Part shown: one piece after another, positions 13,101-16,100 of the stretch | Position numbering within the stretch: the first letter of the stretch is position 1 | Layout: the number at the start of each line of letters is the position of its first letter | Origin: Escherichia coli | GTDB lineage: Bacteria; Pseudomonadota; Gammaproteobacteria; Enterobacterales; Enterobacteriaceae | DNA length: 64,000 nucleotides | Strand: one strand, 5' to 3' | Assembly: GCF_003018255.1 (NCBI RefSeq) | Contig: NZ_CP027440.1 | Position numbers: made by a program

Positions 13101-16100
13101 ATACCGCCAATGAAACCAAACGGGTTACGTGAAGCTTCCAGATAAACCGGCGTCGCCCCCGCCTGAATCAGCGCGCCGTGATGATTCGACTTATGGTTGT
13201 TACGGTCGAAGAGCACCAGATCGCCACGCGTTAACAGCGCATTCGTCACTACTTTATTCGCTGCCGATGTGCCGTTCAGCACAAAATAGGTTTTATCGGC
13301 ATGAAAGACTTTGGCTGCGAATTTCTGCGCATCTTTCGCCGATCCTTCATGAATAAGCAGATCGCCCAATTTTACGTCAGCGTTACACATATCGGCGCGA
13401 AAGATGTTCTCACCAAAGAAATCGTAAAAATGGCGTCCGGCAGGATGCTTTTTAAAGAACGCACCATGTTGATGTCCAGGGCAAGCAAAGGTGCTGTTGC
13501 CCATCTCAACGTACTGCGTCAGCGTGTCATAAAACGGTGGCAGCAAATTCTCTTCATACTGACAGGCTGCGGATTCCAGCTCCAGCCACTGCTGCTCGTT
13601 GCCGTTGATTACCGCCGTAACGCCCGCAGGTAATTCAACAACATGTTCGGAATACAAAAACACCGGTAGATGAAAACCGGTGCGCTTAAGCAACGCAAGA
13701 ATGCCACTGCGGCTATCCGCAGCGGTAATGACGACTGCCGCGACGTCCGTAAAATCAGTATCTCCCAACGCCACCACGCGGCGATGAGTAGAAAGTCGGG
13801 ATACCAGTTCACTACTGGCGGCAATATTCATTGATTTCATAAGCGCAAAACCCGTTTCGGGGAAGTAAGAATACCGGACAAGGTGTAAAACCCTGCCCCA
13901 TGAGATATGGGTCAAACTGGTCACCAGCTCCGACCGCCAGACATCAGTAAAAGCAGAAACGCTCTGATTTTACTGTTGTCCTGCAGTGAGCGTGCGTTAA
14001 CTTCACCGCATGAGCAGAAAAGGGAAGGAGTTTCGCGCGAAACGGCGATAAGCGAGAGAATGTAAGGAGGTGGAGTGCATCGAGCAAACTCCGTACAGAG
14101 AGGAGAAAATTCGCGCAATCATGGCACCTTTCACCAGAGCGTGCAAGCCAGGACTTTGCGAACAAACAAGCCATCGAAGGTGCCAAACGGTCATAATAAG
14201 AAAATCAGACAATGCAGCTAACAGGAACTCTTGTGGTCATCGGTCCTTTTATCAACGCAAGTGCAGTATTACTGGGTGGCGTTCTCGGTGCACTCCTTAG
14301 TCAACGCTTACCGGAACGTATCCGCGTCTCCATGACATCAATTTTTGGTCTGGCATCGCTGGGGATTGGTATTTTACTGGTGGTGAAATGCGCCAACCTT
14401 CCGGCGATGGTGTTAGCAACCTTACTCGGTGCATTAATCGGCGAAATGTGTCTGCTGGAAAAAGGCGTCAATACCGCGGTCACCAAAGCACAAAATCTGT
14501 TTCGCCACTCACGTAAGAAGCCAGCGCATGAATCTTTTATTCAGAATTATGTCGCGATTATTGTCCTGTTTTGCGCCAGCGGCACCGGGATCTTCGGGGC
14601 GATGAACGAAGGGATGACCGGCGATCCGAGTATTTTAATCGCCAAGTCATTTCTCGATTTCTTTACGGCGATGATCTTCGCCTGCTCGTTGGGTATTGCG
14701 GTGTCGGTAATTAGTATCCCATTACTGATCATCCAGTTAACGCTGGCGTGGGCTGCCGCGCTGATATTACCGCTGACCACACCGTCGATGATGGCAGACT
14801 TCAGCGCCGTAGGCGGTTTATTGCTGCTGGCAACCGGATTACGCATCTGTGGCATTAAAATGTTCCCGGTGGTCAACATGCTTCCAGCACTCCTTCTGGC
14901 AATGCCCCTTTCCGCCGCCTGGACCGCCTGGTTTGCCTGACAATGCGTGCATTAGCGGCAAAGTGATGATAGATTGTGCAGTCTGCAGTAAATTGAAGAA
15001 ATTTGATTGACGAGACGAGGCGAATCAGGTTTAATGCGCCCCGTTGCCCGGATAGCTCAGTCGGTAGAGCAGGGGATTGAAAATCCCCGTGTCCTTGGTT
15101 CGATTCCGAGTCCGGGCACCACTAATTCTTAAGAACCCGCCCACAAGGCGGGTTTTTGCTTTTGGCTCTGACAATAACCTTCACGAAAAAAATTAGCTTA
15201 TAAAGTCTGGGGGAATTACTCTCGCCACGTTAACGAGAGTAATTTTATTGATATTAATCTCCTGATACTTTACCCCCGTCCAAATTCCAGCCGCTGCACA
15301 TTCACCATTCCAGGCTTCTCACCTGCGCTGACATCAATTTGTGTCACCCGCAGCGCATACTTTTCATCCAGTGCTTTTAACCAGTTCAGCAGGTCATTAA
15401 ACACCACCGGATCTATCCAGACCTGAATATTCTCCCCGCGCTCAGCTATTCGCTTGATGACCACAGAGTGCACGGAAGCGCTGTCGCTGATGACCCGCGA
15501 TACCTGTGCTGGCGTTGTCGTGCCGGATTTTCGCGCTGCAATAATATCCGGCGCGGCGTTCTTCAGTCGGGTGTTCATTGCCACCAGCTGCTGCAACATC
15601 GTCTCCTGTTGTTCTATCCGTTCGCTCAACGGCTGCCAGATGAGGACGTAATATCCGACGCTAAACAGGAACACCACCGCTGCCAGTAACATGCCCTTTT
15701 CACGCGGAGAACGCCCCGCCAGATGTTGTGTCAGCCAGTGTTCGCCACGGCTTAACTGGCGTTCACGCCATTGCTGAAAATAGTGAATAAATTTATCGCG
15801 TAACATGTTATTTCCTCCGCAACGTTACGCCGCCGGAAACCGCATCACCCTCTTTCTGTAACGCGTCCTGTTGCACAACATAATCTGCCGCCAGTGCGCT
15901 ACGCAGTTTGTCGAAGCTGGCAAAGTTCGCAGCCCGTAGCTGGAGGTGAAGCGTCTGGCGTTTTTGATCAAAGGTGAAACCACGCATTTCGATGTCGGTA
16001 AGTGACGCTGATTTCAGGGTACTGGCGATCGCTGACAATTCTGCGAGCAGCCGGGTATCGTCGGCCTGCGGGCGATATTTTTTCAGCGCCATCGTCACCT

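What the first reader, a model, noticed from the sequence alone, without database searches (positions are those of the whole stretch)
13841..14211. speC-yqgA intergenic region with several short ORFs
The 370-bp region upstream of speC contains overlapping short ORFs (65-80 aa) on both strands. From memory, K-12 annotates small proteins (yqgB/yqgC) here, but I could not match either sequence confidently, so no CDS is called.
Basis: partly seen in the sequence, partly recalled or inferred. Interest (0 to 1): 0.2.

Follow-up and report, generated by a model that had tools for sequence, protein, structure and literature searches.

The report
Conserved speC leader containing yqgH
The gap upstream of the ornithine decarboxylase gene speC holds the already-annotated 25-codon gene yqgH, and comparison across 80 species shows it is the conserved upstream reading frame of a long, structured speC mRNA leader, which is probably an untested control element for polyamine synthesis.

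Summary
The interval 13841-14211 lies between speC (ATG 13840, minus strand) and yqgA, and it carries overlapping ORFs of 65, 69 and 80 aa (minus strand) and 76 aa (plus strand).

Only one piece is a gene. The last 25 codons of the 69-aa ORF (14003-14080, minus strand) are yqgH. They match Pfam PF23506 at E=3.6e-9, and yqgH is annotated in K-12 as b4785. Published ribosome profiling and PIRT-seq show it is translated.

Going further, I compared 80 Enterobacterales speC loci.
- A sigma-70 promoter is conserved.
- A Shine-Dalgarno-led upstream ORF of 18-37 codons follows. Its peptide is not conserved, but it always stays in frame with an almost invariant ATG-CGG-TGA end.
- A roughly 160-nt RNA follows, with covarying hairpins. 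A 13-mer within it is identical in 62 of 80 species.
- Rfam has no match, and I found no paper on a speC leader.

Best reading: yqgH is a cis-acting leader ORF of the speC mRNA, analogous to speFL-speF but not homologous to it. Regulation itself is inferred, not shown. The ORF is already known; its role as a leader would be new.

The parts
14141..14146 (-). speC/yqgH promoter, -35 hexamer TTGCAC
   Evidence: TTG is conserved in at least 90% of 64 aligned species. It lies 17 nt upstream of the -10 hexamer. The consensus scan missed it because the hexamer matches only 3 of 6 positions. Promoter function is inferred.
14118..14126 (-). Extended -10 element TG-C-CATGAT, followed by a GC-rich discriminator TGCGCG (14112-14117). 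The inferred transcription start is near 14111.
   Evidence: The block aAAggTG.cAT.ATTGCGCgaatTTT is conserved from Escherichia to Pantoea. The start site is inferred from spacing only. No start-site mapping data could be read.
14089..14092 (-). Shine-Dalgarno GGAG of yqgH, 8 nt before its ATG
   Evidence: A GGAG, GGGG or GAGG motif lies 7-10 nt before the upstream-ORF ATG in nearly all species.
14003..14080 (-). yqgH homologue: 25 codons plus TGA, [25 protein letters not shown]. It is a pyrimidine-rich (C 37%, G 15%) leader ORF of speC.
   Evidence: Pfam PF23506 YqgH, E=3.6e-9. It aligns to K-12 b4785. The K-12 ORF is translated according to the literature. The frame to the invariant stop is kept across species.
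14028..14038 (-). GCGCGAAACTC island inside yqgH, part of the palindrome GTTTCGCGCGAAAC (14030-14043). It is complementary to the speC initiation region at 13843-13853.
   Evidence: An 11-bp helix is possible in the window, p=0.003 against dinucleotide shuffles. It appears in the predicted MFE and centroid folds. A GCGC(G/A)A:UUGCGC pairing recurs in about 18 of 40 Enterobacteriaceae, but the effect is not significant across the family. This is a hypothesis only.
14003..14010 (-). Invariant end of the upstream ORF, (A)TG CGG TGA. It forms the 5' arm of helix P1' (UGCGGUGA).
   Evidence: ATG 65/71, CGG 70/71, TGA 68/71. It pairs with 13982-13989 in 92% of cells over 9 bp.
13982..13989 (-). 3' arm of P1' (UCACUGCA). 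The same bases form the 5' side of the base of P2, so the two helices are mutually exclusive.
   Evidence: The two conformations differ by a median of 2.8 kcal/mol across 68 species.
13927..13991 (-). P2, a long imperfect hairpin of about 21-24 bp
   Evidence: -30.7 kcal/mol, z=-6.1. 97% of cells are paired in 68 species. Compensatory AU<->GC changes occur at two pairs, in 7 and 10 sequences. 0 of 500 shuffles reach the observed values. The many G-U pairs make the fold specific to the speC-sense strand.
13939..13951 (-). Invariant 13-mer TTTACTGATGTCT, the 3' strand of P2
   Evidence: It is exact in 62 of 80 speC loci, once per locus, always upstream of speC on the sense strand. It occurs once in the 64-kb window. 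Why the 3' strand is invariant while the 5' strand varies is unexplained.
13910..13935 (-). P3 hairpin (GGUCGGAGCUGG / CCAGUUUGACC). It shares GGAGC with the base of P2.
   Evidence: 92-93% of cells are paired in 41 Enterobacteriaceae. Changes are mostly on one side. Other clades pair GGAG with different partners.
13876..13898 (-). P4 hairpin GGGCAGGG-loop-CCUUGUCC. The consensus scan flagged it as terminator-like.
   Evidence: 97.5% of cells are paired, and 6 of 8 pairs show compensatory changes. It was flagged, but the U-run is interrupted or offset, so it is not a canonical intrinsic terminator.
13843..13862 (-). speC translation initiation region. It contains the small hairpin P5 (CCCG-AAA-CGGG, 13851-13862) and the conserved UUUGCGCUU just before the AUG. 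No Shine-Dalgarno lies at normal spacing.
   Evidence: Alignments. P5 is 91.5% paired. The GGG lies 13-15 nt before the AUG, read directly from the sequence.
11705..13840 (-). speC, constitutive ornithine decarboxylase (711 aa from ATG 13840). It is the gene served by the leader.
   Evidence: It is 97% identical to SpeC of Escherichia sp. MOD1-EC7003 and E. whittamii.

Best explanation
The interval is the promoter and roughly 270-nt 5' leader of the speC mRNA. Transcription is inferred to start near 14111 from a conserved extended -10 promoter.

The first AUG on the transcript (14080) opens yqgH, a short ORF that is translated. Its amino-acid sequence is not what is conserved. Three things are conserved:
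- ribosomes load at a Shine-Dalgarno-led AUG;
- they traverse a C-rich, G-poor tract;
- they stop at an almost invariant AUG-CGG-UGA.

That stop region is one arm of a helix. Its partner segment can instead close the base of a long, deeply conserved hairpin (P2). Hairpins P3 to P5 follow, then a speC start site that lacks a normal Shine-Dalgarno.

My committed mechanism is that yqgH acts in cis, so that ribosome occupancy of the upstream ORF and its stop codon sets how much translatable speC mRNA is made. Occupancy would hide a rut-like tract from Rho and dictate which of the alternative helices forms. Translation of yqgH would therefore favour speC expression, as with speFL-speF, tnaC and mdtU.

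What is shown: the ORF's identity, published evidence of translation in K-12, conservation of the promoter, Shine-Dalgarno, AUG, frame and stop, and the RNA helices with covariation.

What is inferred: the transcription start, any dependence on Rho, the switch, the direction of the effect, and any ligand.
For: Identity and translation.
- Pfam YqgH is the only family hit.
- K-12 annotates yqgH in this gap.
- Ribosome profiling, PIRT-seq and RiboReport report it as translated.

Conservation of the upstream ORF.
- An upstream ORF ending ...MR* lies about 160-180 nt before speC in at least 70 of 80 species.
- The final codons are nearly invariant: ATG 65/71, CGG 70/71, TGA 68/71.
- A frame-blind rule, taking the first ATG after a Shine-Dalgarno motif, lands in frame with that stop in 58 of 64 sequences, across 17 different ORF lengths. 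Four of the remaining six have an in-frame ATG 5 nt further on.
- A 21-nt in-frame deletion (L005) and a compensated internal frame change (K-12 against the window) both keep the frame.

The peptide is not the conserved object.
- Mean column identity is 24%.
- Only 9 of 63 peptides match Pfam YqgH.
- Base composition is the same at all three codon positions. C is 33%, G is 21%, and acidic residues are under 1%.

Promoter. It is conserved in all genera.

RNA structure.
- P2 has z=-6.1, 97% of cells paired, and compensatory changes.
- P4 shows compensation at 6 of 8 pairs.
- The whole leader has z=-3.6.
- P1' and the base of P2 are alternatives, each 92-98% paired and close in energy.
- A 13-mer is exact in 62 of 80 loci.
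- Downstream of the upstream-ORF stop there is no 3-nt periodicity in conservation.

Precedent. The speF paralogue uses a leader ORF that ends in Arg-stop, a hairpin that includes the ORF's 3' end, and an overlapping rut site.
Against: - No experiment links yqgH to speC expression. My literature searches found none.
- The Term-seq supplement I could read has no speC or yqgH entry. That text may be truncated.
- The transcription start is inferred only.
- The leader is dispensable in several lineages. Some Enterobacter and Lelliottia, Pseudocitrobacter, Trabulsiella and some Pantoea have lost parts or all of it.
- Most helices are so conserved that covariation is limited to P2 and P4. P1' varies only through G-U changes.
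- The small hairpin P1 does not form in Escherichia.
- The idea that the upstream-ORF interior pairs with the speC start region is not significant across the family.
- The invariance of Met-Arg-stop cannot be assigned to RNA pairing rather than to a nascent-peptide or termination effect.
- A tagged YqgH protein is detectable, so a role in trans is not excluded.
Confidence: 0.68

Rival explanations
1. YqgH is a trans-acting small protein, for example a binding partner of a larger protein, and its position upstream of speC is incidental.
For: The ORF is translated, and it is listed among experimentally verified small ORFs. Many small proteins from the same screen are expected to bind larger proteins. 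Pfam holds a YqgH family.
Against: The peptide is not conserved beyond Escherichia. Only 9 of 63 homologous-position peptides match the Pfam model, and mean column identity is 24%. Length ranges from 18 to 37 aa. Part of the peptide is read in a different frame in K-12 and in the window. There is no codon-position signal. What is conserved is the start, the frame and the stop, together with flanking RNA.
Confidence: 0.1
2. YqgH is a metabolite-sensing arrest peptide that stalls the ribosome at its stop codon, as SpeFL does with ornithine or TnaC with tryptophan. The invariant Thr/Leu-Met-Arg-UGA would be the arrest module.
For: The terminal residues L-T-M-R and the UGA are the only conserved part of the peptide. 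SpeFL also ends in Arg-stop, sits upstream of the paralogous ornithine decarboxylase gene, and has a hairpin over its 3' end. The window's peptide has a local resemblance to SpeFL, [8 protein letters not shown] against FAHRNSFDF.
Against: No YqgH-type peptide hits Pfam SpeFL. hhalign gives a probability of 0.14%. The SpeFL sensor motif HIRRXXH and the conserved Phe26 are absent. The resemblance is confined to one Escherichia lineage. Synonymous variation in the last codons is almost nil: CGG 70/71, and ACC in 51 of 53 Thr codons. That pattern fits an RNA-level constraint at least as well. A four-residue module is short for a ligand sensor.
Confidence: 0.12
3. The conserved block is purely an RNA element, such as a riboswitch-like sensor, a protein or sRNA binding site, an RNase III substrate or a stabilising structure. 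Translation of yqgH would be incidental.
For: Nucleotide-level conservation is extreme, with an exact 13-mer in 62 of 80 species. P2 and P4 covary. P2 is a hairpin of about 21-24 bp with z=-6.1. The 3' strand of P2 is invariant while its partner varies, which suggests a second interaction. In some Enterobacter the upstream ORF is gone while the CUCACC/GGUGAG hairpin remains.
Against: The frame from the Shine-Dalgarno-led AUG to the invariant UGA is maintained through many indels. Two lineages keep the upstream ORF after losing P2 (L027 and L066). No Rfam family matches even at E up to 10. No ligand or partner can be named.
Confidence: 0.1

Closest known systems
speFL-speF leader (ornithine-sensing arrest peptide with Rho-dependent attenuation; Pfam PF10940)
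   Same: It is a short leader ORF upstream of a paralogous ornithine decarboxylase gene. The peptide ends in Arg-stop. A hairpin includes the ORF's 3' end. A pyrimidine-rich, rut-like tract overlaps the ORF. A long untranslated spacer lies before the enzyme gene.
   Different: No sequence homology is detectable. There is no HIRRXXH sensor and no conserved Phe core. The stop codon is almost always UGA, whereas all three stops occur in speFL. The spacer carries a much more conserved multi-hairpin RNA. Ligand dependence and Rho dependence are untested.
mdtU-mdtJI and tnaC-tnaAB (upstream-ORF-dependent relief of Rho termination)
   Same: The upstream ORF is translated and was found in the same ribosome-profiling screen. 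[quoted passage not shown] The regulated gene belongs to polyamine metabolism.
   Different: mdtU responds to spermidine, and its start-codon mutant has been tested. For yqgH there are no such data. For yqgH the pairing partner of the C-terminal region is the base of a conserved hairpin, not clearly the ribosome-binding site of the downstream gene.
Pfam PF23506 YqgH / E. coli K-12 b4785
   Same: The window's ORF is a member, scoring 36.7 bits against a cut-off of 27, and it occupies the same position and strand.
   Different: The window's ORF has 25 codons against 27 in K-12, and the middle of the peptide is read in a different frame. The Pfam family covers only Escherichia-like sequences. The positional family defined here spans Enterobacterales.
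Classical amino-acid attenuators (trpL, hisL, leuL, pheL)
   Same: A leader ORF is followed by alternative helices in a 1:2 / 2:3 arrangement.
   Different: There is no run of regulatory codons. Arg is only about as frequent as the base composition predicts, apart from the terminal CGG. There is no canonical intrinsic terminator, since the U-run after P4 is interrupted or offset.

Membership tests
Pfam PF23506 YqgH (E. coli small protein b4785) | The sequence matches the family HMM above the gathering score. | tested here: met
   36.7 bits against a cut-off of 27, E=3.6e-9, residues 1-25. The 69-aa ORF matches only in residues 45-68.
Pfam PF23506 YqgH (E. coli small protein b4785) | Same locus and strand as K-12 yqgH, between speC and yqgA and co-directional with speC. 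| tested here: met
   Alignment and annotation of K-12, XL1-Blue and ST2747.
Pfam PF23506 YqgH (E. coli small protein b4785) | The ORF is translated. | not testable with these tools
   Translation is shown for K-12 in the literature only. For this strain it is inferred from the conserved Shine-Dalgarno and AUG.
SpeFL leader peptide (PF10940) | HMM match or profile similarity. | tested here: not met
   SpeFL itself scores 23.8 bits. None of 63 YqgH-type peptides hits the model at E up to 10. hhalign gives a probability of 0.14%.
SpeFL leader peptide (PF10940) | HIRRXXH ornithine-recognition motif with invariant Arg12-Arg13, and a conserved Phe26 aromatic core. | tested here: not met
   No conserved motif appears at a fixed distance from the C-terminus. 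Only M1, M-2 and R-1 are near-invariant.
SpeFL leader peptide (PF10940) | Ornithine-dependent stalling at the stop codon. | not testable with these tools
   This needs toeprinting or ribosome profiling with ligand.
Upstream-ORF-controlled Rho-dependent attenuators (tnaC, speFL, mdtU type) | A translated upstream ORF is the first ORF of the mRNA of the regulated gene. | tested here: inconclusive
   Translation is known from the literature. The conserved promoter places the ORF on the speC transcript, but the transcription start is inferred and not mapped.
Upstream-ORF-controlled Rho-dependent attenuators (tnaC, speFL, mdtU type) | A C-rich, G-poor rut-like tract lies in or next to the upstream ORF. 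| tested here: met
   The C/G ratio of the upstream ORF has a median of 1.5 and is 2.4 in the window (C 37%, G 15% over 78 nt). The downstream leader has a ratio of 0.96. This is compositional evidence only.
Upstream-ORF-controlled Rho-dependent attenuators (tnaC, speFL, mdtU type) | Premature, Rho-dependent 3' ends occur in the leader and are relieved by ribosome occupancy. | not testable with these tools
   There is no speC entry in the readable Term-seq supplement. Bicyclomycin or rho-mutant data are needed.
Classical ribosome-mediated attenuators with an intrinsic terminator | A run of codons for the sensed amino acid, plus a terminator hairpin followed by a U-tract. | tested here: not met
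   There are no codon runs. The only terminator-like site, P4, has an interrupted or offset U-run.
Any Rfam 15 family | Covariance-model match. | tested here: not met
   There is no match in 13841-14232 even at E up to 10. Only tRNA-Phe at 15046-15118 passes the threshold.

The most novel reading that the evidence does not exclude
The 'constitutive' ornithine decarboxylase gene speC of Enterobacterales is controlled by a previously undescribed, deeply conserved riboregulatory leader. The leader consists of a leader ORF (yqgH) whose stop codon is embedded in a helix switch, followed by a roughly 160-nt multi-hairpin RNA with an invariant 13-mer. It would sense translation status or a polyamine-pathway metabolite (ornithine, putrescine, spermidine or arginine). 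It would be an independent or very diverged counterpart of speFL-speF.
Probability: 0.35. Interest if true: 0.7.

Novelty: new member of a known kind. Interest (0 to 1): 0.45.

Why it matters
speC supplies most of the putrescine in enteric bacteria and is usually described as constitutive. Older reports of feedback by polyamines, cAMP and growth rate lack a molecular mechanism (my own knowledge, not checked here).

A conserved upstream ORF plus structured leader would give that regulation a concrete, testable handle. It would also explain why yqgH exists and why its peptide evolves freely while its start and stop do not. It would add a second leader-ORF system to the ornithine decarboxylase paralogue pair.

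For annotation, the practical lesson is to call one 25-codon CDS here and none of the 65-80 aa ORFs. The yqgH-type ORF outside Escherichia should be treated as a positional family that protein HMMs cannot find.

Tried and rejected
1. yqgB/yqgC identity. Rejected. In K-12 they lie between speA and metK.

2. The 65-, 80-, 76-, 52- and 48-aa ORFs as genes.
- They have no family hits.
- The TTG starts of the minus-strand ORFs lie upstream of the inferred transcription start.
- Conservation downstream of the yqgH stop shows no 3-nt periodicity.
- The frames joining the conserved blocks differ between genera.
- K-12 has the same ORFs, and they are not annotated.

3. Homology to SpeFL. This was suggested by FARNSFPF...R* in the window against FAHRNSFDF...R*. 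Rejected by the Pfam scan and hhalign, and because the motif is absent in other genera.

4. Arginine-codon attenuation. Apart from the terminal CGG, Arg frequency is about what the base composition predicts.

5. P4 as an intrinsic terminator. The U-run is interrupted or offset by GGGGC.

6. Long-range pairing of the upstream-ORF interior with the speC start region. It is clear in the window (11 bp, p=0.003) and in several genera. It is not significant across the family by RNAduplex (median z 0.07) or by a helix-length test (median p 0.42). I kept it only as a hypothesis.

7. Effect of a stalled ribosome on predicted accessibility of the speC start in the window. A ribosome at the stop alone gave no change (0.34 against 0.34 unpaired). 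Masking the whole upstream ORF raised it to 0.63. This is one sequence and thermodynamics only.

8. Searches that gave nothing or could not be run.
- NCBIfam has no model for YqgH or SpeFL.
- The dRNA-seq start-site paper is not held.
- The profiling preprint has no supplements held as text.
- Literature searches for speC with uORF, leader peptide, bicyclomycin, RNase III or UTR, and for the conserved sequences themselves, found nothing relevant.
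Full report
**Observation**

The window carries nupG, then speC on the minus strand (11705-13840, start ATG at 13840). 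Next come yqgA on the plus strand and tRNA-Phe at 15046-15118.

It contains TTG-initiated ORFs of 65, 80 and 69 aa on the minus strand. On the plus strand it has ORFs of 52, 76 and 48 aa. Four ORFs of at least 60 aa lie mostly inside the gap. Mononucleotide shuffles give 1.0 +/- 0.9, and 0.4% of shuffles reach four. The same ORFs exist in K-12.

The annotated yqgA start corresponds to GTG at 14233. The ATG at 14212 is ATA in K-12.

**What is annotated here**

A megablast of the interval finds one full-length copy in 5,424 of 5,426 complete E. coli genomes. Identity is 92-95% to most of them and 98.9% to strain ST2747.

Under the match, RefSeq annotates a single small CDS. In K-12 this is yqgH (b4785, 27 aa, [27 protein letters not shown]). 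It lies on the speC strand and ends 162 nt before the speC start. ST2747 has a 25-aa version.

The window's version is 14003-14080 (minus strand), [25 protein letters not shown]. It forms the C-terminal third of the 69-aa ORF.
- It passes the Pfam YqgH model PF23506 with 36.7 bits against a cut-off of 27.
- None of the other five ORFs hits any Pfam family.

yqgH was discovered by ribosome profiling with Onc112 and retapamulin, where it served as the model example of a correctly spaced start peak. PIRT-seq re-detected it. RiboReport lists it among experimentally verified small ORFs. None of the eight papers that mention yqgH assigns it a function.

**Comparative anatomy**

I fetched speC loci from 80 species, from Escherichia to Pantoea, Erwinia and Tatumella. 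Their SpeC proteins are 76-97% identical to the window's.

*The upstream ORF.*
- In at least 70 of the 80 species, an ATG-initiated ORF ends about 160-180 nt before speC with ...(L/P/F)(T/A)MR*.
- The last codons are nearly invariant at the nucleotide level: CTC 39, ACC 51, ATG 65, CGG 70 and TGA 68 of 71.
- The ORF starts at an ATG 7-10 nt after GGAG, GGGG or GAGG. In about four-fifths of species (52 of 64) this is the first ATG downstream of a conserved promoter block.
- That block reads TTGcaC, 17 nt, TG-n-cATnAT, then the discriminator TGCGCG.
- A frame-blind rule (Shine-Dalgarno motif, then next ATG) lands in frame with the invariant stop in 58 of 64 sequences, spanning 17 ORF lengths. 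Four of the remaining six have an in-frame ATG 5 nt further on.

*The peptide is not conserved.*
- Mean column identity is 24%. Only Met1, Met-2 and Arg-1 are near-invariant.
- Only 9 of 63 peptides match Pfam YqgH even at E up to 10.
- K-12 and the window read the middle of the ORF in different frames.
- One Escherichia species has a 21-nt in-frame deletion.
- The ORF is pyrimidine-rich (C 33%, G 21%). The C/G ratio has a median of 1.5 and is 2.4 in the window. Composition is the same at all three codon positions, and acidic residues are almost absent.

So selection acts on the act of translation, its end point and the base composition. It does not act on a protein.

**The RNA downstream**

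The 160 nt between the yqgH stop and speC are conserved in all three frames with no 3-nt periodicity.

- *P2.* This is a long hairpin at 13927-13991. It folds at -30.7 kcal/mol with z=-6.1. It is 97% paired across 68 species, with AU<->GC compensation at two pairs in 7 and 10 sequences. No shuffle reaches the observed values.
- *The invariant 13-mer.* The 3' strand of P2 contains TTTACTGATGTCT, which is exact in 62 of 80 loci and always upstream of speC. It occurs once in the window. The many G-U pairs make the fold specific to the speC-sense strand.
- *P1'.* The end of the upstream ORF (UGCGGUGAG) can pair with CUCACUGCA. This helix is 92% paired over 9 bp. The same bases form the 5' side of the P2 base, which is 97-98% paired. 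The two states differ by a median of 2.8 kcal/mol.
- *P1.* A small local hairpin (CUCACC/GGUGAG) forms in most genera but not in Escherichia.
- *P3.* This hairpin shares GGAGC with the base of P2.
- *P4.* At 13876-13898, it shows compensatory changes at 6 of 8 pairs. It is the terminator-like site, but its U-run is interrupted.
- *P5.* This small hairpin lies in the speC initiation region, which has no Shine-Dalgarno at normal spacing.

The whole leader folds with z=-3.6. Rfam 15 has no match in the gap even at E up to 10.

**Natural variants**

Several lineages have lost parts of the leader.
- Enterobacter chuandaensis, E. wuhouensis and E. cloacae, and Lelliottia, keep the promoter and only the CUCACC-NNNN-GGUGAG hairpin, in a 40-nt UTR without an upstream ORF.
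- 'Escherichia sp. ESNIH1' keeps the upstream ORF but has lost P2-P5, so the ORF's stop lies 19 nt before the speC AUG.
- Trabulsiella keeps the upstream ORF and P5.
- Pseudocitrobacter keeps P3-P5 only.

The leader is therefore modular and not essential.

**Mechanism**

The architecture has five features: a translated upstream ORF, a rut-like tract, a stop codon inside a helix with an alternative partner, a long structured spacer, and a weak start site for the enzyme gene. This is the architecture of leader-ORF attenuators.

The closest case is the paralogue speF. There SpeFL ends in Arg-stop, a hairpin includes the ORF's 3' end, and a rut site overlaps the ORF. mdtU-mdtJI is similar.

I therefore commit to a cis-acting leader in which ribosome occupancy of yqgH and its stop codon determines speC output. 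I put the confidence at about 0.68. The sub-mechanisms remain open:
- masking of a rut-like tract from Rho, about 0.35;
- RNA refolding that unmasks the speC start site, about 0.3;
- both together is possible.

A thermodynamic test in the window gives weak support for the refolding branch. Masking the whole upstream ORF raises the predicted unpaired fraction of the speC start region from 0.34 to 0.63. A ribosome at the stop codon alone does not change it. An 11-bp helix between the upstream-ORF interior and the speC start region is significant in the window, but not across the family.

Whether the invariant Met-Arg-UGA acts through RNA pairing or through the nascent chain and release factor cannot be separated with sequence data alone.

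**Membership and novelty**

The ORF is a member of Pfam YqgH and is already known. It is not a member of the SpeFL family, because there is no HMM or profile similarity and the sensor motif and Phe core are absent. It is not a classical attenuator, since it has no codon runs and no canonical terminator.

I found no paper describing a speC leader, a function for yqgH, or the conserved sequences. The library covers only open-access literature, so prior description elsewhere cannot be excluded.

My verdict is that the gene is known and the 65-80 aa ORFs are artefacts. The conserved upstream-ORF-plus-RNA leader of speC is a probable new member of a known kind of regulator.

Noticed in passing
window 14212-14235 (+): The ATG at 14212 that opens the longest yqgA frame is ATA in K-12. 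RefSeq starts yqgA at the GTG that corresponds to 14233 (235 aa), with AGGA 8 nt upstream. The intergenic gap is therefore 13841-14232.
   Followed up: yes
window 13812-13901 (-): An ATG at 13901, just 5' of hairpin P4, opens a 29-aa ORF that overlaps the speC start out of frame. In K-12 the same ATG is in frame with speC, giving a 731-aa ORF. The cause is a T-run before the speC ATG that is one base shorter in K-12 (TTT against TTTT at 13847-13850). This ATG is GTG or TTG in other genera.
   Followed up: partly
L025, L028, L029, L043, L027, L066, L020, L023 (upstream of speC): These loci carry natural deletions of parts of the leader. Some Enterobacter and Lelliottia keep only the promoter and the CUCACC/GGUGAG hairpin. 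L027 keeps the upstream ORF with its stop 19 nt before speC. L066 has lost P2-P4. Pseudocitrobacter has lost the upstream ORF and P2. They could serve as natural experiments.
   Followed up: partly
window 13939-13951 (-); 62 of 80 loci: The 13-mer TTTACTGATGTCT is identical from Escherichia to Pantoea and Erwinia, although its pairing partner in P2 varies. It contains an AUG and a UGA. What constrains it beyond pairing is unexplained.
   Followed up: partly
window 14030-14043: A perfect 14-bp palindrome GTTTCGCGCGAAAC lies inside yqgH in Escherichia only. The motif GCGCGAA also occurs in the promoter discriminator (14107-14113, minus strand), and its complement lies just before the speC AUG.
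   Followed up: partly
L085 (K-12 3085920-3086051), not in the window: K-12 yqgB (43 aa, annotated as 'acid stress response protein') ends 9 nt before the speA start codon, on the same strand. It is another small ORF immediately upstream of a polyamine-synthesis gene and may be a leader or a coupled ORF.
   Followed up: no
window 15046-16986: tRNA-Phe (pheV) is followed by intact gspM-like (15270-15806, minus strand) and gspL-like (15808-16986, minus strand) type II secretion genes. K-12 annotates yghD and yghE at this position, with the small antisense ORF yqhJ inside yghE. In strain ST2747 an IS110 fragment follows pheV instead.
   Followed up: no
whole window: The strain is not a typical E. 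coli. The interval is 92-95% identical to most complete E. coli genomes but 98.9% identical to strain ST2747. SpeC is closest (97%) to Escherichia sp. MOD1-EC7003 and E. whittamii. This points to a divergent Escherichia lineage.
   Followed up: partly
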